64,000 nucleotides of DNA, taken from Psammoneis japonica. Taxonomy: Eukaryota. Where the stretch lies: the NCBI GenBank assembly GCA_008632985.1, contig QPGO01000139.1, positions 124,001 to 188,000 on the forward strand, given 5' to 3'. The notes under the pieces were generated by a model that saw nothing but the letters and a program-made list of their open reading frames with translations, did no database searches and was not told where the DNA came from. Positions within the stretch are counted from its first letter, which is position 1. Each line of letters opens with the position of its first letter. Shown piece by piece: positions 5,702-50,141 of the stretch. Made by a program: the position numbers and the translations under genes.

Positions 5702-5737
5702 CTCCCTCTCAACCGAAAAGAGAAGGAGAACTATCAG

Positions 5738-12686: not shown

Positions 12687-13889
12687 CATAGCACCCGAAC
12701 TTTCGTGCATGCTTTGTACTTTATTCTGTGTATCAGAAACGAAAAGGTGGCAGTCACGAGTCGAAGAAAGCCGTTTCACAAAAAGCGCACAAAACGCATC
12801 GCTTCATCAGCATGTGGCGATCATAGGTTTGAAGAGGCGTCGGAAGAACTCCATCATTGTATCCTCTTATAAGGAGCAAAAGCAAGAAAGACTGTGTTGA
12901 GCTTGTGTGCCAACAAACAGCCAGTGACGAGGACACAACACGCAACATCCTCTTTGTGGATCATCATCCAACACAATGGTCTTTCAACCGTCGTTGCTTT
13001 GAGTGTTGGTTCTGGCTTGTCTCATGGCAGCGTGTTCTTGTGGCAATGCATAATTGGGCGCTTCACTGAACGGCTGTGTCTCATTGTCTTCATTTACAAA
13101 AACATTTGAGGTGAAACATCAGATGCTTCAAACAACACAATGACGTTGCAGTTGTCAAAATGTCAAAGAGAAGGATGTCCGTGGTGCTCTTTTGCTTCAT
13201 TCAGACACTCATCAGCCACCAGCAAATCATGACTTCTTGACATCTGCACAAGTTTTGTGAAATGTTTCATCAGTGTCATCTTCATCACATGCCTCTCCAG
13301 TCAACTTGGCAGTGGCCCACAAATGGTTGGGTGCAACAGGCGGAGAGTGCACAATGTTGTGCAATGCATCATCATTGGCAACATGTTCTGTCTTGCACTT
13401 TTGTTGTCTCTTTGTGCTTTGTCGCCCAGTTCTTGATGAACTGACAAAGCTGAAGACATGATTTGGTGGTGTTTTCATTGTTCATTGTGGTCAGATGAGT
13501 CCTGACAGGCCAGCCATTCTCCTCTGGATTTTCATCATTTTTGCAACTGACTCTCATGGAAACATCTGAAAGTTGCAAACCTTGATCTGCCAGCAGAATG
13601 TTTTGTGTCAGCAAACACAGCAATTTCAATGAAACCCCAAACTGTGCCAAAGTCATTGCACTCCATTTCGCACACAAAGACCGCTTGCAAATTTGGTCAG
13701 TTTGAAAGTGGTCAGCCCCAAACCCCGACTTCATCTCACCTGTCTGTCTCCGGCCCGTTTGGGGTCAGTGCAGGGGGGAGACACACAGATGGACATGCAC
13801 TCACGAAAAAACACCAGCTAAAAAAATCGCACCGTGGCACCAAAATGACGCAACAGCTCTGGCGGGAAGAATCAAGGTTCTTCTCGCAA

Positions 13890-16800: not shown

Positions 16801-19632
16801 GGATCTACATGCTCAGATTCAGAATGGCAAAAGGAGGGAGACTTGACAGTCCCGGGGGTTGACCTCAAGGAAAATGTGAGGAACACAGATGCAATCTTGT
16901 GGACAAAGTCTGTGCATCTGGTTGACACACTACGAATGACCCATCCGGACCTGGAACCAGCAGCCACTTGTGACCAGAACAAATCAGAGACACCAATGGA
17001 TGTGATCCACACGTCCCCAGTGCTCCCTGCATTGGGGCACCCAAGATCATTTCCACACAGGGCATTGTTTGCACCCAGGCAATGCAACGGTCTGGGTGTC
17101 CCAGACATCTGCACACTGCAAGGCCTGCTGAAGCTGGAAGCATGTCTGCAAGAAGGAGATGCTCTGTCTGTGACTGGGAAAGAACTTGCGGCAGTGCGGG
17201 AGAACATGCAGTTGGAGCTTCTTGGGGCACCTGGAGAAATCTGTCAGCTGGACCATGAGAGACCAGCTCTGCTGGTCACTGACACGTGGGTCATGTCACT
17301 TTGGGCCTTTTGCTGGGAACACAACACAGAGCTGGCATCACCAGAAATGCCTGTTCCACTGCAAAGGGAAGATGATTTGTTCCTGATGGAAAGGATCATT
17401 GCAAATGGATGTAAAGGTGAGCGCTTGCAAAAAATCAACCTGCACAGAATGTGGGTCAAGGCACTGCAAGTCTCAGATGTTGCATCAGGTGATGGGAAAT
17501 GCACTCTGCAGGAGCACTGCAATGGATTGAAGATGTGCGAAAGCAACTGCGACTGGCCAAAAGCAGGATTTCCATCCACGGCATGCTGGAGACTTTGGCA
17601 AGAAGCATTGGCAGCATGCCTTTTGCTGCCAGGAAGGAACCACAATCTACAACTGCGATGCGGTCTTGGAAAATGGACGATTGACGCTGGCTCTTGAAAG
17701 TGGTGTTGCTCCAGAAGCAAGGACAGAGCATGTTGCCTCCAAGAAGATTTAGTGCATCAGGCATTTTCTGTGCTTCCTCAATCCAGGAGAAGGAGGAAAA
17801 GACACCACCACCACACAAGTGACTCAATGTAGATTCCATGTGATGCTCATCCAACTCAGATGATTAGAAACCCGAGCTGCATCACACCAGCAGGCACCTT
17901 GGAACAAACTCTGCAACCCAGCATGTCGGAGGAGTTCAAGTGGCACCACATGCCTTGCAAACATGAACCACCAATGGCACCCCTGGTTCAGGGTGTCATC
18001 AATGGAACAGCGGCATGCACAATGGATGGCTTGTTCAAAGAATCCTTGGCAACAGCAGCCATGATGTTGCTCCCGTCCTTTGGACATGCTCGCAGATGCC
18101 GTGGAGTGAATCCAACACCGGGAAGAAAGGAGGATTGAATGGCCTGCTGTGGTGAATTGGGAGGAATCTATGGGCCACTCAGGCACCTGACTGATCTGTG
18201 CAAAGAGCCCAGCACACAGGAAGGATGCATCACTGTGGGTTGTGACTGTGATGCAGCTCCACACACTTGTTTTTACAATGAGTGCGACAACCCAAAACAG
18301 CAAAACCACAACCTGACACAACCTGTTTGAAAGATGCTCCAGGAACTCCCCATTCTTGTGATTCCAGAGGAAGCAGAGGCACATGAAGATGACAAGGTTC
18401 TGCTGCAGCAACTCACACCCATGGAGCAACTAAATGTGGAGATGGATCTGCTGGCCAAAGCACACTGGGAGGCCTTGAAGGCGACCGATCTTCAATGTCA
18501 TGACATGTCAGAGCAGAACAGGTGGCATGTCAAGCTCGGAGGAGAGACCATGAGCTGCTGGGATAAAAACAGGGTGATTGACCACATCTGTGGACCACCA
18601 GTGAAGCAGCATTGGTCGGAGAGGCTGCAGTCAGAACCTTCCAGTGTGGAGATAAATTGGGGGAAGCCTTGGGCAAGGCCAGGCAGCAAATCCCTGCCTT
18701 CCGGAAACTGGGGCAACCAAAGTGGTCAACAGGCTTTGTGGTGACTGATCAAAACCTTGAATGTTGGAAGATCACGAACATGGCAGCATGCCCCAGGTGC
18801 AGAGAAATGGAAAAGGGCATTGATCATGGGCTTCAATGTCTGGCAATGGCGGCACAAGAATTGTGGGACAAGAAAGCAGACAACCCAAACAAGTGGCTGA
18901 AGGAACAACACACAAACCCAGAACTGCACAAGGAAGAACTGCTCCATTGTCTGTTGCAATGGCAACAACAGGAACCTTGCAACCCTTCTGCAGGAAATCT
19001 GCAGGTGCGTGCATTGTCAGAGGAACAAGAAACATTGGGGAGCAATGCGCTGGCTGGAGGATTCTTCTCTTTGGGATGGACAGATGTGCAAAAAGCCTGC
19101 CACCGCCATCTAGATCACCATGACACAGGACTGAGATGGCTGTCCGGACTGATCCAACAACTGTGGAACACAGCCTGGGACATGTGGCGACACCACATGC
19201 GCATCTCCGAACTGCCCACTTCAGAATCAAAACTTGCAGAAAATGGTGTGCTGGACAATTGGATTGAAGAGGAATTTGCCTTCCAATTCAACCGGCCAAC
19301 CCCTCATTTCTCCCACTTGACCAGATGGTTCAACTGTTCCTTGGAATGCATCCAGACAGAGGACTTGGACTGCAAGAAGCAATGGCCAAAGGCTGTTGCT
19401 GTGGCAAAGAGCACTCTGGATCATCAGGTGGGTTGATTCACACATCAACTGCAACCGCACCAAAATCACCCCACAACTGACTCCGCGGCATTGTGAAAGT
19501 GCATTTGCACGTTGCTCTGTGCCCATCCATGGTTGTGGATTGTTGGGGCAAGCAGGCGTGACCAAGCTCACCACAGGTGGTGGCCCAAAACAAATGGGTC
19601 ATGCAATTTTTAGGATTGAATTGAATTGAATT
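13890..19632 (+). mobile_element. Degenerate non-LTR retrotransposon (Ambal-like LINE): ORF1, APE endonuclease, RT deleted, RNase H, CCHC, (TTGAA)n tail
   Basis: Broken acidic ORF1 at ~13.9-16.2 kb. Endonuclease-like GIIEANPN/GSDPTGPGQWIW/TLAHRP/GVDLKENV at 16.3-17.0 kb. Post-RT GLGVPD. RNase H-like TMDG..GELGGIYG..ITVGCD..AHEDD..LNVEMDLLAK at 18.0-18.5 kb. CPRC..DHGLQC. Ends in TTGAATTGAATTGAATTG at ~19616-19632. Confidence 0.75.
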
Positions 19633-19949
19633 GGCAGCATGTTCTTGTGGTGGCAATTCAATTGGTTCACTTGTTAGAGCAGTGACAACAACAACAACCT
19701 GTGACTTCTGTCTTCTGGTGCACCACAACAACAGTTCATCATGAACCAAAAGAAGAAGTCTCCCGTTGAAACAAGAATCAACATGGCAACAATGAGGACA
19801 CTGCAACGGAACATCTCCGTGATGATTTTGTTGATGACAAAAAGGGTGTTGCAATCAACAAAGATGACAACAACAAACCTCTCAACAACCAAAACAACAC
19901 AGTTGTTGTCAACATGATTGGTGTTGGCTCCAACACTTGACCCCACTTC

Positions 19950-21085
19950 CAGGATGTGCCCTGATGCACATTTGCACGACATTGGTCAGTGCGGCACTTT
20001 TGGTGAGCTGCCGAAGAGCAAGATGTTGATGCCACTTGCCCTCAAACCTTGACCGTGTCTGATGTGCAAGCCATTGCACAAATGTGTCACACCACACATC
20101 CCAAACTGCCCACACTGTCACACACTTTGCGTCGCATGATTTTTGTTGAAACAACAACAAGCCAATCCACCCGGTTGGTTGTGTGCACAGAAACGCCCTC
20201 TTGATGCCTTGCATCAATCAAGTGATGGAATGTTGCAAACAAAACAAGGATGCTCAGTTGCCTGACTGTTTGTTCCTCATGGACGATGATTCATGGTTTC
20301 ACATGGATGAGGTCTTGGACACGTTGCATGAGCAGTTGCCCAATGGAGCAGCACAGGTGGTGGTGGGGTGTTTGATTCAATCTCAATGCAATCTACACTT
20401 GAACTTGCATTGGGGAGGATTTGGAGTCATTCTGACCAAGGGAGCTGTGGCGCGATTGATGCAGCCGATTGAGTGTTCTGCAACTGCTGCTCTCCAAGTT
20501 GACAAGGACAACAATCAGGAATTTGTGCAACATGTGTGTCAACAATTGGAACAAGACCTGGTGGGTGAAAAGAGATTCTTTTGACCAGGCATGTCCATCA
20601 TGAACTTGATTCACGAGTGCAGTTCACAACAACCACACACCCAGCACCAGAAATGGGATCCTGCAGTGGGGCATTGCATGCATTCTGACATGGCGCTGGC
20701 CTGCTTTTTCAACTTTTGTTGCATTGCCAAGGCTTCTCAATTCATTGCAGATGGAGCCACGAGCCATCCTCTGTGGTTGGATGCCAAAGATGTGGCCGCC
20801 ACCACCAAGGAGGCAAAGGATGCCACTGCTGCTGCTCAGATGCTGCCCCACTGTGATCGCGTTCGAGCTTGCAATGAAACGTCAGTGCACTGGACCAAAA
20901 AGTGGAGCGGCAAAGTTTGCAAGTCCAGTGGTCATTGTTTGCACAAGATGCCACAGACCTGCACGACCGAGTTGCATTTGTGTCACTGGAGTCCATCCCA
21001 AAACAAGACCTGGCACAAATTGAGACCCGCCGTGGGTCGCAGTGCAAAAGGCGCACAGAATTTTCTTTTGGTCGAAAAAATTTGA
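19950..21085 (+). pseudogene. Fringe-like (GT31-type) glycosyltransferase pseudogene
   Basis: Fragments GWLCAQKRP, LPDCLFLMDDDSW (DDD motif), WGGFGVILTKGA and GHCMHSD, with frameshifts and a TGA stop. Tyr-free and TpA-depleted. Confidence 0.6.
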
Positions 21086-22259
21086 AAGGCATCGCGTTCG
21101 AAAGAGCGCAACAAGAGCAGTCAATTGCTGCCCTTTTAACCCTCAGAATCTTGGCCCTTGCGTGGTGCGGTCTAATCTCCAGTGCTCAAATCATGCACAT
21201 TTCTGCATGGGTCTTAAATCACGACCTTTGCATCAGCCTTGGCTTGTCAGACATTTTGGTTCACATGCTGAAACTCATCAACTGTTTGGATTTGAAAAAA
21301 AGCAAAGATTTTTTTATGACAAATTCAATGTGTTCTTTCATGTTCAGGCGTGCAATTCCAAAATGCGCAAACATTGTGGTGTCCACATGGGTGCAGATCT
21401 TGGGTGGGTCTCAATGTGTGATGGACTCCATGTTCCCAAATCGCACTTGCTGCAGTTGTTTGATGAGATCAATGTGGCCGTGTCACAACATCATCAGGCA
21501 AAGCACAAAGCAGAAGCACCGTGGTGATGAAGGAAGGTGGCATCTTGTTGTTTTGTTTTGCGGGTCTTTGTGGCAAAGGTGGAACAAAGACAAAGAAGAC
21601 ACAGCAAGACCAACAGAGGAGGTAAGATGAGTTGCCACCATGCAATGGCTCAAGCTCTGTGTCATGTCGAAAATGACACAGGAGCAGAATGAACATCATC
21701 ATGGGTTGTGGCAAAACAAGGGATGCACCAGACAGGAGCAGCTGCTGGAGTGTGCGTTCCTCTCCTCTGTCACTGACAAACATTCTGGATCCGGTGGCTC
21801 TCTCAAAAACAAAAAAAAATAGATGCATTTTGTCAAGCTGTTCACTGCAAACCACACAGTTGGAGAGAAGCACATTTTGTCATTCGATGCAATGGGGAGT
21901 CAACTGCACAACAGAGACCTTTTTTTGCAGACTACTGATGGACCATCGTGATGGTGCCAACTTGCACTCTTCAGACCGCAGAAGCCACAAAACATCAGAA
22001 TCAGCCACAATGACAATGACACCCCGGCTCACACTGCTGACCTCACCATGTCATTTTTTCATGATTTGCACACTGTCGAGGAAGCATCTGAGTTCCTTGA
22101 TGTCTCTGCAGCGGCCTCACATGTTGTGGAGCTGCTTGAGGGGGAAAGATGCTCCACCTCTGGATGCAACTGCCCTGCCATGCACCGCAACAAATCAAGA
22201 GAGGACCTGGGTCCAGCCACTTTTGGGTTCTTCACTGTCAAGGCTGGTTTTCCCAAAAG

Positions 22260-24200
22260 CTGATCAAGAAAGCAATTGTCAAGGGTGGGATCTCCATGGG
22301 TCTCAACATCTCTGTGATGAAAAAGTTGGTGACAAACAGAGTTGCTGTTGTTGCAAACGACAGCTGCTTGAAGATTGGCTGCTCTGCAACAAACATGCGG
22401 ATGCCTCGAAACAAGGAAATTTGGACCAAGATTGCAAATGCTGTGGGCAGTGACCTCTTGGATGCGGTCAAGGACAAGCTTCAAAATGAGCCTCATGTGG
22501 GACTGTGGCTGGCCCCTTGGCATTTTAAACCAGAAGAAAGGGCACACAATCCCAACACACAAAAGAGTGGATGATGAACAAGGCAGATGCTAAGAAGAAG
22601 TGTTGTGATGGTGACCGCTTTGTGTGGACTGGTTTTCCACCACCAAACTGCCTGCCTTCAAACTTCATTGCATGTGAACTGTCTGATCCTTCTTGGGAAT
22701 GACCAAGCAACTGTTGGAAATGGAGGAATGTGGCACCAGTGCAAGGTTCAGGCTTGCCATTGTGGGTTGCGGTGCACCGTTTGGTTGAACCACAAAGTGT
22801 TGGTGATCCCCAAACTCCCCTTGTGCATGTTGCATTGACAAAAACTCAAGTTGTTGCAAAGAAAATGACTTGGGATGGCTGTGTTGAAAACAGAAGAGTC
22901 AGAGAAGAAGGAAGAGGTAATTGCAAATCTTCACAGTGCCCTTGCACTTGCAAACCACAACAAGAAGGAGATGGAAAACACTGCAAAACAACTTCAGAAC
23001 AAACTGGAGTCATGTGAATTGGAGCTCAGCAAGTCCAAAGGGAAAATGCTTGAGTTGGAAAACAAGCTGGTGGTTCTTCATGGTTTGAATGATGATCGTC
23101 ATTTGACTTGTGATGACCTTGCACCAGGCAGTTGGCTGTCAAAGGCTGTGAGGACGCACACGCATTTTCCAAACTGTGAGGCAAATGAGGCCTTCCCACA
23201 AGTTCTGAATTGGGATGATGACACAGAGGGAGGTGGTTGCAACCTTGGTGATGGATTGTGTGTTGGATTTTGTCATCACAGCAGGGTTTCCACTGAAGAA
23301 CGACTCGGAGAAGTCAACGCAAGTGACCAGGAGTTTCCAACAAAACCTGAAGCAAGATCAAAAAACTGAAAGACTGAACACTTGATCTGTTCCATGCATG
23401 CAAAACTTGGAATCTCGTGTGAATTGATTGAGCCTTTGTTTGCCATCTCACCCAGTGTCATTGGCAATGTGGTGCACGCGTGGGCTCCTGTCTTCTTGAA
23501 TTGCTCTCTCTCTCTTGCTGTGGTTTCCCACCCCAACCAGATCACAAATGCTTCAGGCTTTCCCTGATTGATTTGTGTGGGCTTGTGGACATGCCCTTGT
23601 CTTCTTGCTTCTCGACGCAACAGAGCATTGGACGCAGACTGTGACTGGGAGTGATGCTCACTCAAGCATGCACAGTGACTGCAAGGTCATGATGCAACAA
23701 AAATGCTTGCGGACACAGATCCCATTGACTGTGCTCACAATGGATTGGCTGTGGAAGATGGGCACCCGGGTTCAATTTTAGATCCTGTTGCAACAAAGAT
23801 GAGCAAACTTTTGGACAATGTGCCATTCGGTCACACAACTTTAGACAACAAAGGACTCATGATCAACAGTTTTACAGTGCGGAAGGGAGTGGGGACCCAA
23901 CGACCTCCAAAAAAGATAAAGCTGCAGGTGAAGCAGTCAGAAGCGGTGGACACAGCTGCCATGCAAAAAGTTGGGAATCTTTGAATCTTCAACGAGATGG
24001 TGAACAGAGTGGCAAAGATGTCAACGCATTGTTTTGATTTGCCGGTGCCAATCCTCCAGCTTGGTCTTGCACCTTTGATGTTTCGAGTTGCATGTCTGAT
24101 GCAGAACTTTCATCCAGCATTGGTTCATGGGCAGACATCATCATTCGTTGATGAAAATGGCAAGGTTGCTCCAGTCAAGAAATTGACCACGCCGCGGTGA
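22260..24200 (+). pseudogene. ISL2EU/Harbinger-type DDE transposase (DDE_Tnp_4-like) with a possible N-terminal THAP-like domain, degenerate
   Basis: LLLDATE, HSDCK-GH, HPGSILD, NKGLMI, RPPKK, KVGNL*IFNEMVN..K and LMQNFHPALV follow the DDE_Tnp_4 motif order. There is an upstream coiled coil and an RMPRN..W...APWHF THAP-like segment. Confidence 0.7.
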
Positions 24201-24429
24201 GTTCCGATGGCATGGTGGGACAGATGAAGGTTTGTTGAACTGCAGAGGGCACATTCATCTTTGGGGTGGCATTGAAGAAGTTGAACAATTCACTTGTCTG
24301 AAAGAGGGGCATCCAGATGAGAGCCTTGTCAAAATGGGCAAGATGGCGTTGCAAGAGAAATGGGACAAAAAGCTGTGAGCTGGGCACACAAAGCATGCAG
24401 TGGGCAAGCCATGAACCATTGTTGTGACA

Positions 24430-24650
24430 GTTGGTGCAAATGCTGTTGACACAGCCACCCAATCAAATGCTGTCATCACAAGAGCATTGTTGCAACAGCC
24501 AACACAAATGCTGTTGATGCAGCCACCCAGTTGACGCAAATGCTGTCAACACAGCTGCCCAAACAAAAGCTGTCATTGCAAGAGCATCATTGTAACAGCA
24601 CTGTCAATGCAACTGCCCAAATGAATGCCATCATTGCAAGAGCAAATGAA
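24430..24650. repeat. Degenerate short tandem repeats (CAAATGCTGT(T/C)GACACAGCCACCC-like) between the two convergent transposon ORFs
   Basis: CAAATGCTGT-like units recur near 24437, 24464, 24505, 24537 and 24564. Confidence 0.6.
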
Positions 24651-24889
24651 AATTCTATTTTTGCAACATGGCCAATGTCATTGCAAACAAAATTACAACA
24701 GCCAGTTGCAACATGCAATGAACAGACCACTCCAGGACTCCTGCAATGTTTTGAAGAGATTTTTGATTGTGGCATGATCACCACAAAAGCAAGCTTCATC
24801 TGGCATTTTCTTGCATTTCGCCATGGTTCCATGAATCTCGCAGTTGGCTCCGACACCCTTTTGGACATTTCAGAAGGCATCTGAATCAT

Positions 24890-26995
24890 GTTTCATTGAA
24901 ACTTTCTTCTCTCCTTCCTCTGTGGTCCTTGGTGCTCGTGCAATCTGCATCTGTGAAACGCAAGTTGTTGCTCCAGTTTGAGGTTGGCTTGAAGATGGTT
25001 GGAGTCACATGCAAAGCCAGTCGTTGATGGCTTCTCTGCAAGCCGGTCTTCCCCCCAATGAAAGCACTGCAACCACATTGTCCTGGCTTTGTGACTGCAA
25101 CAGCCCAGTCCTGCAGTGCATGGGCCCACACAGAGTGATGCAACAATGCCTGTCATTCAACCAAGGTTGTGTTTGTCCTTGTCAAATGAAGTCTCCTCCA
25201 CTCGCAGCACAAGCAATGTCAGATGCAGCCACTGATGAGCATGTTCTCCAGGATCTGTCTTTCATTTGGTGCTGGAATCAGTGGTCATGGATGCTGGTTG
25301 TTTGGCCAAGACATGCAGCAGCTTTCTGTCCTCCAAGAAACAGATTGCATGACAATGCAGCTGTTTCTCCTCACACACATGCTGCAATGACCCCCCAACA
25401 CTTTTCTGATTTCATGTTTCCACCAATGTGAGCAAAGCATTGATGTGTTGTAAACTCAGGCAGTTCAGGGCTTTCAATGCAATTTTTGTCAAAGTCGTCA
25501 CTGAATTTTCCTCCAACAAACAAGTCACAGCAATCCTCAAGGTGTTTCTCAATGTGGCAGCTCCGTGGATCCAAAATGAACGGGTGGCTCAATTGATTGT
25601 CAAAGATTTGGAGAATGAATTCTTTGCTGTTGTCGCATTTGGTCTCAATTTTTTGAATGATCCACTGGTCTTCTTGTCTTGATTGCATGCATGTGACAGC
25701 TGGGGAATGCAAGAGCATGGGTTTTGGAAGCCTCCCACCAGCCGCTTCATTTCTTCACATGACATCGTGGATCCCATGTCATTTGCAGCACATTTCCACC
25801 ATGTGCACTCAAGCAGTCTTTCAATTCTGCAGCACTGCAATCTTCCACTCCCTTGTTCTTTGGCAGCAAGAAACTGGCTGTGTCATTGATCTCCTCTCTT
25901 GAACAATGCAGCAGCTGCAATGCACTCATTGCCTCAAGTGCTCCTCTCTCCTGCTTCGAAAATTTCTCGCACGTTCGTGGATCAATTGGTCCACACGAAT
26001 GCTGTCTTGTGCTTTCATTGGACAGCTCAATGATTTTGCCAGACTGCACAATGTTGCTGTTGCTGTTGCAATGACAACACTCTTCACAACACTTGACAAT
26101 GTCTCGAACATGCGTTTTGTGCGTTCCACAGCATGCAAGACCTCGTGGACATTTTTGTTGAGTTTGGAGTCAAGATGGAAAGCAAAGCTTGACACCAGTG
26201 ATTCAAGTGTCACATCTGGACAATTGATCATTGCACGGAATGTGTTGGTTGCCATTTTCTTCCCGGCACTGTGCACTCCACTTTTGTCTGGTGCACAATC
26301 ACATCCAAAACAAGCTCCACAAATCTGGAACACAATGCAGCCAAATTTCTTGAAAGAGTGCCAAAGGATCCAACAAGGATTGTTGGCTTCAAGCTCCAGA
26401 CTGTCTGGAATTGATGCAAGATTGAAGCATCAAAACTCCTCTCTTGAATGGCTGTCAACTGCCATGACACACTAGTGCCCAAGCATGAGGAGATCGCTGT
26501 CTCTGGTGATTGCAGCACACGGACGACTGTCATCGTCATTGTTGGTGCCAGTGAGGTGGCGTTGGCAATCTGCCTTTCCATGGGCAATGGTGGAATCAAT
26601 GCCAAGCTTGTTGCACACCCTCCTCATCACAGCTGTGAACAATGGGCCCACTTGACTGCTTGCGGCATTGCCTTGTTCAGCAGCTTCTCGGCGGAGGGCA
26701 TCGAGAGACGCTCATGTTCATCATGGCGTTTGTCAGCCAAGTTTTGACCATCAAAGACCACAAACATGTTCCACCAGCATGTGCATCACAAGTGACAAAT
26801 CTCACAAGCAAAATGTTGGAGCAGAATGGAGCAATCAACATTCTGGCTGGCACTGGATGTGCAAGACACAGTGCAGCTTCGAAGAAGGCCTGCCACATCA
26901 AACGAAACACGGTGTTTCCCAAAATTCAGATGGCGAAACGTCTTTGGCCTGTTTGGGGTTAAAGGCACCAGTGGTGGAAGTCCATAGATTCCCAT
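24890..26995 (-). pseudogene. EXO1/XPG-family 5' nuclease with C-terminal SWIM-like zinc finger, degenerate (probable second ORF of the transposon)
   Basis: MGIYGLPPLV start, VSFDVAGLL, FVVFDGQN (~26745), GIDSTIAHGKADCQ, AAITRDSDLLMLG, GCDC..GVHSAGKKMA (H3TH-like), and CVGPCTAGLGCCSH (SWIM-like, ~25090-25135). Confidence 0.75.
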
Positions 26996-27566
26996 GGGGT
27001 TGATCAGAGAACATCAGCACTTTGGCGAGCACACCTTGACGATGATGTGCGACGAGTGTTGAAAAGTTGAGATGAGAAATCCAGAAAAAAGCCAGCGCCG
27101 TCGATCACAAACAGCTGTTTTTGTCTGCCTGTCTTCCACCAAAAAAGGTCCATCTCCACTCTGGCCACCAGCTAGACCAGCAGCTAGAGCCACTCCACTA
27201 GCTAGCTAGAGTAGAGCCTGTCTATCTACTTCTGTCGACTGCAGCATCTGTGCCATCTCCACCGGTGTCCCCCGTCTATCACGGTAATGTGGTCTACGTA
27301 CAGTAAATAAACTTGGGTACGAAGAGAGGTCTGGCACAAAACGTGAGAAAGTGATGACGTGTTTGATGAGAACTCAAAATAAAAATCGCAGAGAAACACA
27401 AAGAAGAAAAAAGCGCGAAAATCGCCAAAACATCGCTGGTTGTTCCCTCCTAGCTACACATGACGAGGAACGAGTATTCCTCCAGTAACAACGCTGCGCA
27501 AAGAATCCAAATACATTGATGGTCTTGAGCAAGGCCCTATAATATTGATCCTATCCTCAGTGCGGT

Positions 27567-30500
27567 ATGCCTTCCCCTTCATCGATAATTGATTCGCTGT
27601 TTCCTACCCGAGATGGGAAAATCAGTTGTCCGTGTTCGTCGGTTCAATTCCATACAAGCGTCCCTGGCACCAGCTATGCTTTGATGGAACAGACAACAGC
27701 GCACTGTCACTGTAAAGATTGTCTTGGATTTGCTCGATCCTGTAAAAATGGGGAAGTTGTCATTGTAAACAACGCTACTCAATTTGTGCAGTTTTACAAA
27801 TCAGACATCAAGGCTATCAAGCCGACTAACGAGAATATTGGGCGAGTCAGGCTCCGCGAGGATTCTATCATGATTCGCTGTTATTGCAAAATTTGCGGGA
27901 CACCGATTGGAGCAGAAGTAGATGGAGCACCAGTCATGCTTGTCTATGCGCAATTGATTAAGTCGGGGACAGTTCACATATCCAATCTGATCCTGAACTT
28001 CAGAGATGCGGAACCTGGTACAAGAGACTACTCGAGGAGAGTCGTTGTTCGCAAAGGCATGTTTTGCCCTCTCTTTTTCGTTCGCCTCGTTATAAGGATC
28101 ATTATTGGTTTCCTATTCGGCAAGGGCAACGGTGGTTTTTTGAACGGCCAGTACGAAGATATTCCCGTTGGTTTGAAAAGCGTCGAAGAGAACAAGATTG
28201 ATTTGACGAAGAAGAGCGAAATGAACACCACAGAAGACACAATCATGTCCTTCGAAGAGACTGTGTCTGACGATGATTTTGTTTCAAAAGAGAAATCCGT
28301 GGAGAGGAAAGTTCTTGACGATGAGTCGACTATAGAGGATGAAGAAACGGCGAATGACTCGAAAGTTGCGGATGAGATAAACTCGATAGCTAGTGACAGG
28401 GAAGATGCGTCAGAAGCTTCCAAAGTCGAGGGTGTCGACGATATCGAGGATGCGAAAGATGCAGTCAAGTCATTTACGGCTGAGAGGTCCGTAGTGGAGG
28501 ATACGGAAAAGGACTCGGGAGACGATGCCAACTCCGAAGAAGTCACAGATGCGACAGAGAAAACAGAGACGTCTGATGATGATTTCGTTCTAAAAGATAA
28601 TACCGTAGACAGGAAATTGCTTGACGATGAATCGACGTTGGAGGATGAAGAGACGACGAATGACTCGAAAGTTGCGGATGAGATAAATTCGATAGCTGGT
28701 GACAGCGAAGATGTGTCAGAAGCTTCCAAAGTCGATGGTGTCGAGGATGCGAAAGAAAAAGTCCTGTCATTAGCGGCTGAGAGGTCGATAGTGGAGGATA
28801 TGGAAAAGGTCTCGGGAGACGATACCCACTCCGAAGAAGTTACAGATATGACAGAGAAAACAGAGACGTCTGACGATGATTTCGTTCTACAAGAAAATGA
28901 GGACGATGAGTCGACTTTGGAGGATGAAGAGACGACGAATGACTCGAACGTTGCGGAGGAGATATCGATAGCGGGTGACAGCGAAGATGCGTCAGAAGCT
29001 TCCGAAGTCGAGGGTGTCGAGGATGCGAAAGATACAGTCACGTCATTAGCGGCTGAGAGGTCGATAGTGGAGGATATGGAAAAGGACTCGGGAGACCATG
29101 TCAATTGCGAAGAAGTCACAGATGTGACAGAGAAAACAGAGACGTCTGACGATGATTTCGTTCTAAGAGACAATACCGTAGAGAGGAAAATACTTGACGA
29201 TGAATCGACTTTGAAGGATGAAGAAATGACGAATGACTCGAAAGTTGCGGAGGAGATAAATTCGATAGCGGGTGACAGCGAAGATGCGTCAGAAGCTTCC
29301 GAAGTCGAAGGTGTCGAGGATGCGAAAGATACAGTCAAGTCATTCACAGCTGAGAGGTCGCTAGTTGAGAATATGGAAAAGGACTCGGAAGACGATGCCA
29401 ACTCCGAAGAAGTCACGGATGCGACAGAGAAAATAGAGACGTCTGACGATGGTTTCGTTCTGAAAGATAATACCGTAGAGAGGAAAATACTTGATGATGA
29501 GTCGACTTTGGAGGATGAAGAGACGACGAATGACTCGAAATTTGCGGAGGAGATAAATCCGATAGCTGGTGGCAGCGAAGATGCGTCAGAAGCTTCCGAA
29601 TTCGAGGATGCGAAAGATACAGTCACGTCATTAGCGGCTGAGAGGTCGATAGTGGAGGATATAGAAAAGGACACGGGAGACAATGCCAACTCCGAAGAAG
29701 TCACAGATGCGACAGAGAAAACAGAGACGTCCGATGATGGTTTCGTTCTAAAAGATAATACCGTAGAGAGGAAAATACTTGACGATGAGTCGACTTTGGA
29801 GGATGAAGAGACGACGAATGACTCGAAAGTTGCGGAGGAGATGAATTCGATAACTGGTGACAGCGAAGATGCGTCAGAAGCTTCCAAAGTCGAGGGTGTC
29901 GAGGAGGTCGAGGATGCGAAAGATACAGTCACGTCATTAACGGCTGAGAGGTCGCTAGTTGAGAATATGGAAAAGGACTCGGTAGACGATGCCAACTCCG
30001 AAGAAGTCACAGATGTGACAGAGAAAACAGAGACGTCTGACGATGATTTCTTTTCAAAAGAGAATTCCGTAGAGAGGAAAATACTTGACGATGAGTCGAC
30101 TTTGGAGGATGAAGAAACGACGAATGACTCGAAAGTTGGGGAGGAGATAAATTCGATAGCTGGTGACTGCGAAGATGCGTCAGTTTGGAAGGGTGTCGAG
30201 CATGTCGAGGATGCGAAAGATGCAGTCACGTCATTAACGGCTGAGAGGTCGGTAGTGGAGGATATGGAAAAGGACTCGGGAGGCGATGCCAACTCCGAAG
30301 GAGTCACAGATGTGACAGAGAAAACAGAGACATCTGACGATGATTTTGTTTCAAAAGAGAAAGTCCTGGCAGATGAGATAGTAGGTAACGCGGGGTCGTT
30401 GAAGGATTATGAAGAAGCGATTAATAACTCGATTGGCTTGGAGGAGATCAAGTCGACATCTAGCAGAAACGAAGATGCTGCGGCTGCACCTGCTAGTTCC

Positions 30501-44235: not shown

Positions 44236-44975
44236 GTTTCAGGTTTGATAAATAATGGTATTGATGGATCAAGATTGCGTGGACAGACGGAAGGGACGCG
44301 AAATTGTGATGTTTTGTTCTTTAGTGGACTGAACTGGTGTCCACGTCGAAAAACGAAAGGCGATAGCGCCGTTGCATAGTGTGCACGATGCGCTCACTCC
44401 ATCAAGTCTTTCTTCCATCCAACATGTTTCAACATCCAAAAAGAACTTACCGTGGGACAGCAGAGAAGGCGGTACGGGCAAGAGCGTTCATGTTGATGGT
44501 GTCTTTGATGTGTCTGTTAAACAGGTGAGGAAGTTGTGAGAGGGATGAGAGGAGAAACTGGCAAGGAATTTTGTGAGCAACTTTTGCAATCCACGTCAGC
44601 TGCGGTGACGTGTTATTCAAATATTATTGAATGGATACATTTTAAAGGACGCTTGCTTTTCCGTTGGGGTCGTCATTCCATTTTGTCCTTCGATTTCTAC
44701 GACGAGCCATACGTGGTGCTTACAGTACGTATGTGCAGGCGTACTCTTGCTGGATGTATGACGTGGTTACGTAGTGTTGATGTTGAAGGAATTCGGAACC
44801 TGCTTTGGATAGATGACACCGTCGGTCCGTCAACAGAGAGTCATAGTGCATCATCTGCAGCTCACGTTTCTAAATCTCATAAACGAAGTATGCAACACCA
44901 AAAACAGAAATACCATACCATCAACACTGCATTGGCAATGGTATTGTCATCCTGCAAGCCTCCATCTGACTCACA

Positions 44976-46567
44976 ATGATTCGACGCGGAGAAGCCGAAA
45001 TATCATCACGAAATGGCTGGTCACAAGATGGTAATGACAATTTTCCCAGAAGACCCAACGGAGAGCAGCAGTCATCTTCGTCGTCTGACTGGCATCCCTC
45101 GCCTCCGCAGCTTAGCAATCGTCCGGTTCCGGGTCGGCCAAGAAAGCGTATGCCTGTCATTGTGACCCCGCCCATTTCAGGAGAAATATTGGGTTCGTCT
45201 TCGAGACGGAAACAGCGAAAGAATTTTTGTTCTCGATTTCTTGCGCAATTTTCAAGCGGAAAGACGAGAACGGAAGGTTTCTCGTCGCTGGTGTTGTTGG
45301 CGATTGTGCTGTGGTACCTTTTGGGAGTGATCAGCATTGGAACGTCGAAATTGCTATTGATGAAGCCTAAAACACATCAACTAGTCGGTAATGTCCCACC
45401 CGTGTTTCTTACGCTGCAACAACTGATAATTGGATCGCTCCTATTTCGGTTCTTGCTGCACAACAAAGCTCTAGGATCATCCGGACTGCAGCCGTGGCCG
45501 ACATCATCTTCTAAAAAGGCAAGACGACCTTCGCAGAAATCAAAGCAACCGCCCGGTAAATCCTCTGAGTTGGTATTGACGGGTTTGTTCTTTGGGCTGG
45601 GCTTTCTAACAACCAATTACAGTTTTCGTCACTCATCGGCTGCCTTTGTGGAAACCATCAAGGCCGCCGAACCCATTACAAGTGCTTTGGTGGCTGTCAC
45701 GTGGGGAATTGAAACGTTGGGAATAAATGAAGTTATATCCTTGGGTGCTATTGTCATGGGAGTTTTGATTTCCACCGTTGCCAATGGATCTGCAGGCACA
45801 CCGAGGTGAGCAGAGTGTTTAGAAGGCACAAACCCCGCCTTTGGCGTTGTTATCATGTTTGTGCACATCTCATTCGTTCACATTTAATCCTATTGCTTCA
45901 GTGATAGCTCATCGTCATCATTGAGTGCTTCTATCGGAGGTTGCTTGTTAATCATGGTGACCAACGTGTGCTTCTCCTTTCGTGGATTGCATCAAAAGCT
46001 CTTCCGTGCTTCGCCTCAAGGCACAGTTGCTGACGTGGATGATTTGAATTTGCAGTATCGCGTGCAACAAGTGGGTGTAGCACTGTTGATTATTCCCGTC
46101 ATTGTACTTGATGGGGTCAACATGTTTTCACGAGTGTGGCACATTTATTGGAATTTTGGTTTCTTTCAAAGTGGAGCATTGCTGCGATATATCGGGTTGT
46201 CTCTTGTGAATGGATTGGCCTTCGCAAGTTACAAGTGAGTGTCTTCACCTGCGGTTTGTCGTGTTATTCCTGATCATGATATTTTCTCGACTTATCTGGT
46301 ATTCTCGTTGCTACGTTGGAACGTAGTTTGGCTTCCACGTTTGTTTTATCCAGAATATCCGTAGTGCATCACGCGGCATTGAATTGCATTCGACGAATAT
46401 TTGCCATTATTGTTACATCTATTGCGTTTGGGTTGCCAATAACGTGGTTTGGTGCGTTCGGGATATTAGTCTCCTTCTGGGGCTTCATGTCCTTTACGCA
46501 CTTCAAAGCCAAACGGCACTCGCAACCGCGCCAAGTTTCGACTCTGTTGCCCATGAGTGCCGTGTAG
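44976..46567 (+). CDS. Triose-phosphate/nucleotide-sugar transporter family (TPT/DMT) protein, 3 exons
   Basis: LWY..G..SIGTSK, FVETIKAAEP, NVCFSFRGLHQK and SVVHHAALNCIRR. Introns at ~45806-45901 and ~46236-46327. Confidence 0.88.
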
Positions 46568-46847
46568 ATCCAAAAAGTGAGTTCACCAAGCAAGGAGAAA
46601 GCGTACTAGTATAGCGGTATAGAGTCTAACAAGTAATCGTGCAGCACGAAATCGCGAGAAGAACTTTTTCATGTGATGCGGCTTTCGTTTCGGATCAAAT
46701 CTCGAAACTAAAGAACGCTGCTCAGTTCTCTGACTGTACTGACTGCATCGGACTTCTCCCACTCCTCACCGACCACTCGAATCCCACCTCTTCCAACGCT
46801 CGAATCCTATCTGATGTCATTGGGCTAGACTTTTTATTACTTTTGCA

Positions 46848-48360
46848 TCAGTTGTAGTTACGACGTTGATCCTTGACCCAGAGTGCGAGTCTCTTGTTTA
46901 CCGAATAATGCTGCGGAACACGACAATGCCCATGGAAGTTGTCGAGAGCCGCTCCTCTTCGCGGCGCTGACCACTCAAATCCTGCGTCTTCCAGAGCTTT
47001 CAGACGATCCGGAGTCATTGAGCAAGGCTTGCTTTTGTTTTGATAATGCTTGTAGCTCCTGCGCTGTGCCATGACCCAAAGTGCGAGGCGTTTGTTATCC
47101 GAATAACGCTGCGGGACACGATAATGCCCATGAACAGCTTTGAACTCCAAAAGTTCATCGAGCATGCGCTTCCAACTGGAATTGTCGACATTCGGACCCG
47201 GTTTAAGTGACCACTCGAATCCCGCATCTTCCAGAGCTTTCACACACGATCTGGAGTCATTGGGCAGGGTTTGCTTTTGTTTTGACAACACTTGCAGTTC
47301 CAACGCTGTGTCCGGACCCAACAAGAGAGGCGTCCATTTTCCACGTAGTTGCCAGGCACACGGCAATGCCCATGAACGGCCTTAAATTCCAACAATTTGT
47401 CAAGCACACGCTTCCAATTACTCCCGTCGGAATCCGGACCCTTTTCAGGTGACCACTCGAATCCAGCATCTTCCAGAGCTCTCGCACGATCTGGAGTCAT
47501 TGGGCAAGGTTCAATTTTGTTTTGACAATGCTTGCAAGTCTTGTGCTGTCTCGTGACCCAAAGTGCAAGGCACCTATTTTCTGAACAATGCTGCGGGACA
47601 TGACAGTGGCCATGAACAGCTTTGAATTCCAACAATTCGCCCAGCATGCGGTCCCACCTGTCATTGTCGAGACCACCTCTTCTCGGCATTGACCACTCAA
47701 AGCCGGCATCTTCCAGAGCTTTCATGTGATCTTGAGTCATTGAGCAAGGTTTGCTTTTGTTTTGATGACACTTGCAGCTCCTGTGCTGTGTTGTGACCCA
47801 ATGTGCGAGGCGTCTATTTTCCGTGTGGTTGTGAGGTGCACGGCAATGCCCATGAACGGCCTTAAATTCCAACAATTTGTGAAGCACACGCTTCCAATTG
47901 CTCCCATTGGAATCCGGACCCTTTTTAGGTGACCACTTGAATCCGCATCTTCCAGAGCTCTCACACGATCTGGAGTCATTGGGCAAGGTTTGCTTTTGTT
48001 TTGATGACACTTGCATCTCCTGCGCTGTGTCGCGACCCAAAAGCAGAGGCGTTTGTTTTCAGAGTGACGACGCGGAACCCAACAGTGGCCATGAAGTTGC
48101 TTGAATTCCAACAGCTCATTAAACATGTGATCCCACTGATCAGTTTGTCCCGATGACTCGAAATTAAATCCAATTCCTCCAAGCTGTTCTTCCCAAGCAT
48201 CGGCGAGTGCTGATTTGCCATTTTGTAACTTTTTTTGGCATGCCCTTTGTTGTCTGATTGTCCAAGCACCCAAAGGAGTTCTTTGTGGGTGCGCAAAAGT
48301 CCCCATTTTTCTCATGAAACTCAACCAGTTCTTGGAATCGATTTTGCCACCGGGCCTCAT
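46848..48360 (-). pseudogene. Helicase-associated (HA) domain tandem-repeat gene, disrupted
   Basis: About 6 units with ~240-bp period: W...L.EL.EFK..HGHC.VP......LA.WV..QR......R.KALEDAGFEW. Frameshifts present, with Tyr->Cys/His increasing toward the 5' end. Confidence 0.88.
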
Positions 48361-48958
48361 GAGATTGCCCCTTCACAGCCCAGCACGTTCGATGCTGCTG
48401 GCGTGTGAACTGTGCTCTCTCCTTGCAGGCTCTGTTTTTAAAAGTCCATGTTGAACAACCAGAAAAAGCTGGACAGTTATTCACATTGTGAGTAAAAAAC
48501 AAGAATGCCTCACCATTTCCTGCGACGATGCTCAAAACGAACAGCACCGCGAACAGCGGCAACCCCATCAGCATGATCATTTGCGCAGCCAGATTCGGTC
48601 GGCATTTTCTGCGACAGATGAGGAGAAGGATTTACTAGCAGCAAATCAGTTGTTGTGGCTGATGTGGATCACGAAAATTGCTTATTCAAATCGTTTCGCT
48701 GTCGCAACCGTAAACTGTCAGTTGTCAGTTTCTGTTGAATGGGTGGCATCGTCGTCGGGGACAAAAATCTTCGGCATCCATAAAAATGTGGCTCTGAAAC
48801 GCGCGGGGCCGCGCATAACGTTGTGGCTTTTTTGTTGCGGCGAGCAAATTCGCGACGCAAATTGCTGATTGCTGTTGTTGCCGTCTTCTTTCGTCCCTAC
48901 GAGTACCAAAACTCTCTCGGACATTCAATCAAGGACTCGTTACGTTATCAGATAAGCC

Positions 48959-50141
48959 ATGTCACTATCTGGTAACTTCAAGTACGTTTTAATTCCATGT
49001 GATACAACGAAAGATATCGAGATTTGCGTGGGTAACAAATCTGGAGGACTGAGTGATGACTTTCTCGTCAAGGCTGCGAAAGAGTACTTTCAGAACCAGA
49101 GTGGAGGTAGCCAAGGTAAATACACACAAGAAGTTCTCTAGCGTATGAATGATACCTGCAATGTTCTCTTACGAATTTCACTTTCATGATCTATGTTTCA
49201 GCTGACGCATTAGCAGCAATTGATAGCTACAGTCCAGAACAGCGAAAAGAACTCGCTCAAAGCTTCCGACAGCAAATGATGTCCATGGCCCCAGATTCAA
49301 ACGAAGCCTTATCGAAAATGCCGGATGATGCTGTGTTGCAATATCTCAAGTACGTGGTCATACTCCGCTTGTTGCCTTGCGTCTGCATGGTGTCTGTGGT
49401 TTGTTTCTTACAGAGTTTCTCATCTCCTGTAATCACGGCAGAGCTACTCAGTCTGCCACGACATGCGAAATTATGGCCTTGACAGTTCCGACAAAGGAAA
49501 ATGATTACAGAGCCGTTAGTATGTACAGCGCTTCTGCGTCACACGATCAGCCGGTAAATATTCGCGCAACCAGTCTCCTGACAGCTTGTGGTCACAATGC
49601 TCCAACATCCGACAATAATGGCCCAGCGGGAGTTCGTGGAGATGTCTTTTTGGGAAGGTGCAAGGATAAGGAAGACACAGATGAATGGGTTCGTGAAGAT
49701 TTTCTTGTAGAGGATGCGTCTCCGGATGCACCGTGGATCAAGCAGGCCCGAACCAAGGGCGGCGGCGGGGGGAGTGGGGCTAGCTCCGGTGGTGCGGCCC
49801 CATCCTTGAGCGGAATCATGTCTCAATCGTTTCAGCAGCAGCAACAACAGCATCCCTCGTTGCAAAATTGTACATGGTCTCAGACAGACGAGGATGTGGA
49901 GTTGAAATTTGCGGTAGCATCGGGAACAAAAAGCAAACACATCAAGGTGAATTTTGCACCGAATCATCTGACTGTGAAACTGACAGGCCAGACCCTTATA
50001 AATGGAAAGACCGGAGGGGCTGTCAGCGTAGACGATAGCACATATACCATTCAAGATGACGGGAAAAAAGGACGCGAGCTATGTGTTACACTGGGAAAGA
50101 AGGTGCCCGGATCGACATGGCCTTGTGCTGTACAGCCGTAA
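48959..50141 (+). CDS. NudC/CS (p23-like) domain protein, 3 exons
   Basis: C-terminal TWSQTDEDVELKF...IKVNF...L.V...STYTI...L.VTL.K..WP CS domain. Introns at ~49116-49200 and ~49350-49441. Confidence 0.75.

What the first reader, a model, noticed from the sequence alone, without database searches (positions are those of the whole stretch)
46848..48360. Mutation gradient across HA-domain repeats, with one TpA resolved both ways
Seen: the unit nearest the TPT gene keeps Tyr (HGHYRVPQRYSD...RSYKHYQNK), whereas upstream units read CKCCQNK, CKHCQNK and CKCHQNK. The homologous site TA at 47044-45 is CA at 47286 and 47526 but TG at 47766 and 48005, as expected from A->G on either strand. Inference: a multicopy host gene family, not only canonical TEs, is targeted. 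The affected patch is only ~1.3 kb and fades toward active genes.
Basis: seen in the sequence. Interest (0 to 1): 0.8.

Follow-up and report, generated by a model that had tools for sequence, protein, structure and literature searches.

The report
TA-erased patch in dead HA-repeat gene

Summary
The gene is broken by a +1 shift in U0, a +2 shift in U4 and an in-frame TGA in U6.

A TA-poor patch is real. At 47208-48750, TA o/e is 0.17 and CA+TG o/e is 1.50. Both lie outside 305 normal 1.5-kb windows (TA min 0.42, CA+TG max 1.35). The lost TA (38) plus lost CG (25) equal the gained CA+TG (65).

Short-read contigs of at least two paralogous loci differ from the window mostly at YpR steps. Seven sites are TG-versus-CA doubles, and one site reads TA, TG and CA in three copies.

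The unit alignment is no more TA-biased than a normal tandem array in an intact gene. The 'HGHY' Tyr is probably derived. U5 is not significantly depleted, so the 'gradient' is a plateau with two shoulders. CpG decay contributes about as much as TpA loss at single-step differences.

This scan has already noted the same TpA-to-TpG/CpA signature on other DNA of this genome.

Verdict: partly supported; a new target class for a barely described process.

The parts
46770..48408 (-). Tandem array of seven HA (helicase-associated, PF03457) units. U0 48408-48169, U1 48168-47930, U2 47929-47690, U3 47689-47450, U4 47449-47208, U5 47207-46968, U6 46967-46770 (short linker).
   Evidence: TRF finds period 240 (4.5 copies, 73% matches) and period 482 (81%). 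Pfam HA hits. Per-unit bits: U5 66.9, U1 62.8, U3 57.9, U2 53.2, U4 45.4 (truncated). Alignment and identities: U2-U4 0.85; U5 against U1-U4 0.71-0.75.
47208..48464 (.). Core of the TA-poor patch: 11 TA against 43.4 at the genic baseline. The deepest part is 47500-47800 (0-1 TA per 200 nt, CG o/e 0.41-0.51, CA+TG o/e 1.74-1.76).
   Evidence: The right end coincides with the end of paralogy seen in read contigs (loose end at 48464).
48465..48897 (.). Upstream shoulder covering the non-repeated 5' part and promoter side. It has 8 TA where about 16 are expected. Normal composition resumes from about 48800-48900.
   Evidence: TA positions; fine scan; 48409-48750 has 7 against 13.7, p 0.04.
46968..47207 (-). 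U5, the least changed unit. It has 6 TA (o/e 0.39), the shortest tree branch (0.11), and four Tyr against 0-1 in U1-U4.
47044..47045 (-). Focal site, family position 55: TAT in U5. Homologous sites read TGT in U4 (47286-87) and U3 (47526-27), CAT in U2 (47766-67) and U1 (48005-06), TGC in U6 (46846-47), and TAC in U0 (48226-27; a paralogue contig has C at 48226).
   Evidence: Family frequencies at this position: L 0.19, Y 0.14, F 0.11, R 0.08, H 0.07, C 0.00.
47104..47105 (-). Second both-ways site, family position 35 (Tyr 0.46). It reads TA in U5 (47104-05), U4 (47346-47) and U6 (46906-07). On the minus strand it reads TG in U3 (47586-87) and CA in U2 (47826-27) and U1 (48065-66).
47053..47054 (-). 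Family position 52 (Tyr 0.61, Cys 0.02). It reads TAC in U5 and U6 (46855-56), and TGC in U0-U4 (48239-40, 48014-15, 47775-76, 47535-36, 47295-96).
47122..47123 (-). 'HGHY' codon TAT in U5. Five of the six other units read TG(Y) = Cys, and U0 reads TTT. The family has Cys 0.64 and Tyr 0.02, so this Tyr is probably derived.
47047..47048 (-). Family position 54, the codon next to the focal one. It reads CAT (U5, U3), TGT (U1, U2, U4) and TGA (U6). All are one transition from CGN (Arg 0.12 in the family), so this is probably a CpG resolved both ways.
   Evidence: the ancestor is inferred.
46848..46850 (-). In-frame TGA inside U6. Homology runs on to FEWS at 46770, and the frame's next stop is near 46722.
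   Evidence: The window's own short-read contig covers it with 0 differences (record 1).
47240..47248 (-). +2 frameshift in the U4 tail: an extra GT in CGTGTGTGA creates a TGA.
   Evidence: No indel is listed there in the read contigs (depth 66.7).
48279..48280 (-). +1 frameshift inside U0. A paralogue contig lacks one base here and would read through. About 58 of 124 depth keeps the window's form.
47944..47945 (-). -1 frameshift in the U1 tail. It is doubtful: the only read contig at this place (depth 171) has an extra C after 47942.
48404..48405 (.). Three-state site among three copies: TG in the window, CA in one paralogue contig, TA in another.
44970..46567 (+). Flanking triose-phosphate-transporter-family gene with normal composition. 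Its 3' end converges on the HA gene.
   Evidence: Pfam TPT 4.8e-10 and 6e-07; composition.
48959..50138 (+). Flanking CS-domain gene, divergent from the HA gene, with normal composition.
   Evidence: Pfam CS 1.2e-11; composition. The start at 48959 was read from the sequence.

Best explanation
The locus is a dead, segmentally duplicated member of the HA-domain repeat family. Its central 1.3-1.5 kb was hit in place by the same mutational process that has almost emptied the window's transposon tracts of TA: TpA to TpG or CpA, i.e. A:T to G:C at TpA on either strand. A slower CpG to TpG/CpA decay goes with it. Exposure here was partial (about 69% of TA and 28% of CG lost, against 91% and 71% in the tracts). 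It is strongest in U2-U3 and falls off over a few hundred bases toward the two flanking active genes.

Shown: the patch, its mass balance, its outlier status, the broken frame, the existence of paralogous copies, and the YpR-centred differences between copies.

Inferred: the direction (TA older); that the enzyme is a polynucleotide adenine deaminase acting at T-A, the U33-A34 context of ADAT/TadA substrates (recalled); and that the trigger is silence and/or duplication rather than membership of the HA family as such.
For: (1) Composition. Patch 47208-48750 has TA o/e 0.17, CG 0.71 and CA+TG 1.50. The 305 normal 1.5-kb windows have TA 0.42-0.72 and CA+TG 0.90-1.35. The tracts have 0.05 / 0.29 / 1.78.

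(2) Mass balance. TA is 17 against 54.8 and CG is 64 against 89.2 (deficit 63). CA+TG is 287 against 222 (excess 65). The other 12 dinucleotides shift much less. The tract 13001-27000 balances in the same way (1022 against 1074).

(3) Protein level. Tyr counts are 0, 0, 0, 1 in U1-U4 against 4 and 2 in U5 and U6. Cys+His counts are 10, 13, 12, 8 against 4 and 5. Cys or His stands at family-Tyr positions 35 and 52, where the family has C 0.02. His stands at Arg positions 49 (R 0.92; U2, U3) and 68 (R 0.72; U2).

(4) Paralogue contigs. They have depth 59.9-65.8 against 61-67.7 for the unique flanks. Of 30 listed differences in 48114-48434, 28 are transitions. Of those, 23 fall at YpR steps, which hold 44% of positions (p 4.5e-5). 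Seven are TG/CA doubles. Three sites read TA against CA, and one of the doubles shows all three states TA/TG/CA.

(5) Same window, independent pair. The two LTRs of a copia-type element (RVT_2 3.5e-37) differ at 5 of 289 sites. All 5 are TA in one LTR against TG or CA in the other. All lie in the 86 nt next to a TA-poor patch, and none is a CpG change.

(6) Not tandem repetition as such. An 86%-alike 297-nt array in an open 1251-codon frame keeps 7-12 TA per unit.

(7) The gene is broken.
Against: - Unit-to-unit differences are mostly ordinary. In U3, 1 of 34 polarised changes is TA>TG, 6 are CpG-type and 15 are transversions. The majority rule used there is biased against parallel hits.
- The TA-context A<->G excess among U1-U5 (0.333 against 0.156, 2.1x) matches that of the undepleted control array (0.164 against 0.081, 2.0x).
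- U5 is not significantly depleted, so a graded fade is unproven.
- Among single-step paralogue differences, CpG-type (6) outnumber TpA-type (4). Most TG/CA doubles could therefore descend from CG as well as TA.
- The paralogue evidence is a difference table from short contigs of what is probably the source sample. The copies themselves could not be fetched (no genome held).
- No expression or methylation data were available.
Confidence: 0.66

Rival explanations
1. Ordinary decay of an old pseudogene. The units diverged long ago, selection relaxed, and methylated CpGs decayed to TG/CA. The TA shortage is a property of this HA subfamily or chance, and no TA-directed process acted here.
For: Most unit differences are not at TA. 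The TA-context excess equals that of a control array. CpG-type changes are plentiful.
Against: CpG loss (25) explains under half of the CA+TG gain (65); the remainder equals the TA deficit (38). TA o/e of 0.17 lies below all 305 normal windows, and the non-coding 5' part shares the shortage. U5, U6 and the flanks are at baseline. The usual G:C>A:T bias of neutral decay (general knowledge) would raise TA, not remove it. A TA-only before/after LTR pair lies in the same window.
Confidence: 0.1
2. The mutator is real, but the 'fade toward active genes' is not a property of its targeting. The step at U4/U5 and near 48464 marks the limits of the duplicated segment, or U5-U6 were later overwritten by gene conversion from unmutated HA copies.
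For: Paralogue contigs stop matching at 48464, where strong depletion ends. The U5 core has summed contig depth up to 1540, so many near-identical copies exist as possible donors. U5 is statistically at baseline, which fits a step rather than a slope. The big tracts have sharp edges of 200 nt or less.
Against: TA per 100 nt rises monotonically, 1.2, 2.5, 4.0, 5.0, from U4 to the 3' flank, and from 0.4 to 2.0 to 4.4 on the other side. The LTR pair shows spill-over of about 86 nt beyond a patch edge. The left limit of paralogy could not be placed.
Confidence: 0.3
3. Cys/His-rich units are an adaptive variant (for example metal binding) kept by selection, and the dinucleotide skew is a by-product of amino-acid choice.
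For: U1-U4 carry regular C/H motifs (CKCH, CKHC, CKCC) and still score as HA domains (45-63 bits).
Against: The frame is broken in U0, U4 and U6. Cys is 0.00-0.02 at these positions in 1145 family domains. A 0.92-conserved Arg is lost in U2 and U3. The shortage extends into non-coding DNA.
Confidence: 0.03

Closest known systems
TpA-restricted hypermutation of integrated giant-virus and virophage DNA in Bigelowiella natans (Mettrop et al., bioRxiv 10.64898/2026.01.13.699255; I read the abstract, outline and 12 passages)
   Same: TpA goes to TpG/CpA depending on strand. The long-term signature is low Rho(TpA) with high Rho(CpA+TpG) in clustered windows. Their 5% cut-offs are 0.43 or less and 1.52 or more; the patch core here gives 0.00-0.15 and 1.67-1.76, and the whole patch 0.17 and 1.50. 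They propose an adenine deaminase of ADAT2 type.
   Different: The host lineage differs: diatom-like according to earlier scan notes, which I did not test. The target here is a broken host-family gene copy, not viral DNA. CpG loss accompanies TA loss here, whereas the word CpG does not occur in that text. No mutation-accumulation evidence exists here.
Repeat-induced point mutation (RIP) of Neurospora and other ascomycetes (details recalled; mentioned in passages of PMC9998398)
   Same: Local, dense transition mutation of duplicated or silent DNA. All copies seem hit, each differently. There is spill-over into adjacent unique DNA, and working neighbours are spared.
   Different: The chemistry is opposite. 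RIP turns CpA into TpA and enriches TA; here TA is removed and CA/TG enriched. A tandem array 86% alike and 98%-alike repeats of 163 and 289 nt in this window are largely or wholly unmutated. Dependence on RID or on the sexual cycle cannot be tested here.
Methyl-CpG deamination decay of silenced DNA (established knowledge)
   Same: CG goes to TG/CA on either strand. It explains the His/Cys at Arg codons, the CGA-type stop in U6, and about 25 of the 63 lost dinucleotides.
   Different: It cannot remove TA. A TA-only patch with normal CG exists in the same window (10800-12399).
Strand-coordinated deaminase clusters (APOBEC kataegis, ADAR/ADAT editing; recalled; PMC4728370 seen only in a search listing)
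   Same: U2 differs from its sister U4 by transitions oriented 20:5 (purines 12:1). This is what deamination of A and C on one strand would give.
   Different: Only one of 15 unit pairs shows it (p 0.004 before correction). Paralogue differences show no net orientation (13 against 15). No enzyme has been identified.

Membership tests
HA (helicase-associated) domain family, PF03457 | Significant match to the Pfam HA profile above its gathering score (28.4 bits) | tested here: met
   143.4, 91.1 and 73.2 bits for three ORFs. Single units score 33-66.9 bits. The N-terminal piece of U0 alone scores 24.4 bits, below the cut-off.
TpA-to-TpG/CpA hypermutation (Bigelowiella type) | Clustered windows with Rho(TpA) of 0.43 or less and Rho(CpA+TpG) of 1.52 or more | tested here: met
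   200-nt windows 47500-47899 give TA 0.00-0.15 and CA+TG 1.67-1.76. The whole patch gives 0.17 and 1.50, just under the second cut-off.
TpA-to-TpG/CpA hypermutation (Bigelowiella type) | Changes almost exclusively A>G / T>C and all at TpA | tested here: inconclusive
   Unit alignment: not exclusive, with a 2.1x excess equal to the control. Paralogue contigs: 28 of 30 differences are transitions and 23 of 28 lie at YpR, but CG-type singles (6) outnumber TA-type (4). LTR pair in the same window: 5 of 5 at TA.
TpA-to-TpG/CpA hypermutation (Bigelowiella type) | Direction TA to TG/CA shown by de novo mutations | not testable with these tools
   No mutation-accumulation or population data. Direction is inferred from net composition, the family profile and U5/U6.
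TpA-to-TpG/CpA hypermutation (Bigelowiella type) | Target is foreign (viral or transposon) DNA | tested here: not met
   The target is an HA-domain array between a TPT-family gene and a CS-domain gene. No transposon domain was found in it.
RIP | C>T at CpA giving TpA enrichment and CpA/TpG loss | tested here: not met
   The trend is opposite: TA 0.17 and CA+TG 1.50.
RIP | Acts on duplicated sequence; all copies mutated | tested here: inconclusive
   At least two paralogous loci at full depth differ at YpR sites. But other repeats in the window are unmutated, and the copies could not be fetched.
Methyl-CpG decay | CG deficit matched by TG/CA gain | tested here: met
   CG is 64 against 89.2, and o/e is 0.41-0.51 in the core. 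This accounts for only part of the signal.
Pseudogene | Reading frame broken inside conserved domains, breaks confirmed by independent reads | tested here: met
   The +1 in U0, the +2 in U4 and the TGA in U6 are supported by read contigs. The -1 in U1 is contradicted. The runs are probably the source sample.

The most novel reading that the evidence does not exclude
This alga has a RIP-like genome defence with reversed chemistry that senses duplicated or silenced DNA of about a kilobase or more, whatever its origin. It deaminates A at TpA, and perhaps C at CpG, in strand-coordinated bursts. It would therefore also kill duplicates of host genes and limit how gene families such as the HA arrays can expand. 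This 1.5-kb island between two active genes would be an intermediate snapshot in which TA loss runs ahead of CpG loss.
Probability: 0.22. Interest if true: 0.9.

Novelty: new variant of a known kind. Interest (0 to 1): 0.6.

Why it matters
If the reading holds, the TA-erasing process is not confined to transposons or viral inserts. It can mark a kilobase-sized island of host-derived DNA inside a gene-dense stretch, with neighbours a few hundred bases away untouched. That narrows what the targeting signal can be.

The window also argues that tandem repetition alone is not enough. An 86%-alike array in an intact gene is spared, while a broken, dispersed-duplicate array is hit.

The patch sits at an intermediate stage (TA 69% lost, CG 28% lost). 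Together with a TA-only patch in a young copia element, it suggests two processes with different speeds.

It also offers a compact test locus for methylation, chromatin and de novo mutation assays. As a caution for annotation, TA erasure removes TAA and TAG stops and leaves long empty ORFs.

Tried and rejected
- Whole genome: none is held, so paralogues could not be fetched or aligned.
Polarity therefore rests on site patterns, a family profile and read contigs.
- Close outgroups: the word-indexed protein search found nothing at near lengths and 3 distant proteins (29-37% identity) at longer lengths. The exhaustive search gave 13083 relatives, the best only 41-45% identical.
- One scan of metagenome contigs with a degenerate 29-mer from the repeat found 0 matches.
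- RNA: no RNA holder was listed among the 3 runs. Expression is untested.
- Read contigs at the focal site: no difference is listed at 47044-45 or 47053-54 although the bin's summed depth is 1540. However, differences near contig ends are not listed and 8 rows were not shown, so I give this no weight.
- Earlier scan notes: a look-up by sequence gave one unrelated bacterial note. A look-up by place in this window gave nothing.
- Strand coherence as a general feature: rejected. Only U2 against U4 is skewed, and paralogue differences are balanced.
- Literature: searches found no description of TA erasure in diatoms or of HA genes as its targets. PMC9258296 (passages) was irrelevant.

Full report
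WHAT IS THERE

The region lies in a eukaryotic, intron-bearing, gene-dense stretch. Earlier notes of this scan call the organism a diatom; I did not test taxonomy.

On the minus strand, 48408-46770 holds seven tandem HA units, U0 to U6 (Pfam PF03457). A possible start lies at 48580.

That point is an in-frame TGA inside U6. Homology continues to the unit's FEWS at 46770, and the frame ends near 46722.

The gene is broken in several places:
- A +1 shift in U0 near 48279. A paralogue contig lacks the extra base; about 58 of 124 depth keeps the window's form.
- A +2 (GT) shift in the U4 tail at 47248-47240. No indel is listed there in the read contigs.
- The TGA in U6. The own contig agrees.
- A -1 shift in the U1 tail, which is doubtful. 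The only contig at that place has an extra C.

The neighbours are a TPT-family gene whose 3' end converges on the array (stop at 46567) and a divergent CS-domain gene starting at 48959.

THE OBSERVATION

TA counts for U0 to U6 are 1, 2, 3, 1, 3, 6, 8. The 5' part 48409-48750 has 7 in 342 nt, and the 3' flank has 10 in 202 nt.

Against a genic baseline (TA o/e 0.54), U0-U4 are each low (p 0.003-0.05). U5 is not (6 against 8.3, p 0.27), and U6 and the flank are normal. The picture is a plateau, deepest at 47500-47800, with a shoulder on each side. A true gradient cannot be separated from a step.

IS THE PATCH REAL?

Yes. At 47208-48750, TA o/e is 0.17, CG is 0.71 and CA+TG is 1.50. In 305 normal 1.5-kb windows, TA ranges 0.42-0.72 and CA+TG 0.90-1.35. 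The three large TA-free tracts (1-3000, 13001-27200, 61200-64000) give about 0.05, 0.3 and 1.75.

The books balance. TA is short by 38 and CG by 25, and CA+TG is up by 65. The other twelve dinucleotides shift much less. The 14-kb tract balances the same way (1022 against 1074).

TA loss is 69% here against 91% in the tract. CG loss is 28% against 71%.

DIRECTION

I aligned 1145 HA domains from the 150 best of 13083 relatives to U5.
- At family positions 35 (Tyr 0.46) and 52 (Tyr 0.61), U5 and U6 keep TAY, while U1-U4 carry TGY or CAY. Cys is only 0.02 in the family at these positions.
- Position 35 is a second 'both ways' site. It reads TA in U4, U5 and U6, TG in U3, and CA in U1 and U2.
- At the focal position 55, the family is hydrophobic or aromatic (L 0.19, Y 0.14, F 0.11, R 0.08, C 0.00), and U0 also reads TAC. 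TA is therefore the likelier older state, perhaps 0.8, but this is not proven.
- The adjacent codon, position 54 (CAT/TGT/TGA), is better explained by an older CGN.
- Conserved Arg codons became His or Cys by CG>CA/TG: position 49 (R 0.92) in U2 and U3, and position 68 in U2.
The family has Cys 0.64 and Tyr 0.02 at that position. None of the six other units has Tyr; five read TG (Cys), U6 outside the patch included.

THE UNIT ALIGNMENT IS NOT DISTINCTIVE

The tree is nearly a star. U5 has the shortest branch (0.11), against 0.23-0.31 for U1, U3 and the U2+U4 lineage. This fits extra change in U1-U4.

Polarised by the majority of the other units, however, few changes are TA>TG/CA. In U3, for example, 1 of 34 is, with 6 CpG-type and 15 transversions. 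This rule under-counts parallel hits.

The A<->G exchange in TA context among U1-U5 is 0.333 against 0.156 elsewhere (2.1x). An undepleted array of 297-nt units, about 86% alike, inside an open 1251-codon frame shows 0.164 against 0.081 (2.0x).

The array's internal alignment alone would therefore not establish the claim. The units are old, and hypermutation is an overlay of perhaps 40-60 changes.

PARALOGUES

No genome is held. Contigs of two DNA runs, probably the source sample, were laid on 46500-49000.

Besides the window's own contigs, variant contigs of depth 59.9-65.8 cover 47340-48464. The unique flanks have depth 61-67.7, so these variants are separate loci rather than alleles. One of them lacks two units (joint 47561>48071). 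Matching ends at 48464.

Of the 30 listed differences in 48114-48434:
- 28 are transitions.
- 23 of those 28 sit in YpR steps, which hold 44% of positions (p 4.5e-5).
- Seven are TG-against-CA doubles.
- Three sites read TA against CA.
- Six sites read CG against TG/CA.
- At 48404-05, one of the doubles, the three copies read TG, CA and TA.

This is the best evidence that self-complementary TA (and CG) steps were resolved independently on either strand in different copies. It also shows that CpG decay contributes about as much as TpA loss at single-step differences.

SAME-WINDOW CONTROLS

A copia-type element lies at 5414-12687 on the minus strand (RVT_2 3.5e-37). Its LTRs differ at 5 of 289 sites. 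All five are TA in one LTR against TG (2) or CA (3) in the other. All lie within 86 nt of a TA-poor, CG-normal patch at 10800-12399. The TA-specific process thus acts in this window, leaks about 90 nt past a patch edge, and can run without CpG loss.

Conversely, the 297-nt array and a 163-nt triplet that is 98% alike (57594-58091) are unmutated. Tandem repetition alone is not the trigger.

MECHANISM

Most likely (0.66), a silent, duplicated HA pseudogene was exposed to the TpA>TpG/CpA mutator, with methyl-CpG decay added. Intensity falls toward the two active neighbours.

The enzyme is inferred, not shown. The Bigelowiella preprint proposes an ADAT2-type adenine deaminase. From my own recall, the natural ADAT/TadA substrate A34 follows U33, which is a T-A context.

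A hint of one-strand action exists. U2 differs from its sister U4 by transitions oriented 20:5 (purines 12:1; p 0.004 in one of 15 pairs). Paralogue differences, however, are balanced.

Whether duplication or silence is sensed remains open. The strong patch ends where paralogy ends, which favours homology. The non-repeated 5' shoulder is also depleted, which favours a domain or leakage.

COMPARISON AND NOVELTY

The signature matches the Bigelowiella report in chemistry and in the Rho criteria. It differs in lineage, in the target (host-family DNA) and in the accompanying CpG loss.

It works like RIP in logic but fails RIP's defining chemistry.

My searches found no description of this in diatoms.

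This scan has already reported the signature on other pieces of this genome. What this locus adds is a new target class and an intermediate stage, not the process itself.

Noticed in passing
window 5414-12687: Copia-type LTR retrotransposon on the minus strand (RVT_2 3.5e-37, retroviral SH3-like domain), with two N gaps (7440-7621, 8483-9137). Its LTRs (5414-5702 and 12399-12687) differ at 5 of 289 sites. All five are TA in the first against TG or CA in the second, and all lie in the 86 nt next to the gag-side patch.
   Followed up: partly
window 10800-12399: Second partial patch: TA o/e 0-0.28 with near-normal CG (0.6-1.16) and CA+TG 1.15-1.49. It covers ORF 11179-12249 (-), which has no Pfam hit and is probably the gag end of the copia element. 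TA loss occurs here without CpG loss.
   Followed up: partly
window 1-3000, 13001-27200, 61200-64000: Large tracts almost free of TA (o/e 0.01-0.11), with CG o/e 0.15-0.5 and CA+TG 1.7-1.9. Edges are sharp (200 nt or less). Many long ORFs (up to 407 codons) have no Pfam hit, presumably because TAA and TAG stops were erased.
   Followed up: partly
window 28265-30358 (ORF 27549-31301, +): Array of 297-nt units, about 7-8 copies and 86% alike, inside an open 1251-codon frame with no Pfam hit. TA (7-12 per unit) and CG (17-22) are normal. I used it as the unmutated control.
   Followed up: yes
window 57594-58091: 163-nt tandem triplet, 97-98% alike, in normally composed DNA next to a PPR gene. It is not TA-depleted.
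   Followed up: no
window 47573-47574 and 47942: The only short-read contigs at these places disagree with the window (TT for CC; an extra C). These are either assembly errors or collapsed paralogues. The second would remove the U1 frameshift.
   Followed up: partly
window 47561 / 48071: A read contig of depth 63 joins these two points with three other letters between them. This indicates a paralogous copy of the array with two fewer units.
   Followed up: no
window 47690-47929 (U2) against 47208-47449 (U4): These sister units (85% alike) differ by transitions with a strong orientation. U2 has A where U4 has G at 12 sites against 1 the other way, and C where U4 has T at 8 against 4. On the + strand, CA/TG counts are 19/29 in U2 and 28/13 in U4. 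This may be one-strand deamination, but it is significant only before correction for 15 pairs.
   Followed up: partly
window 46920-47171: Summed contig depth reaches 1540, against about 65 for unique DNA. This HA subfamily's conserved core is present in some tens of near-identical copies in the genome.
   Followed up: no
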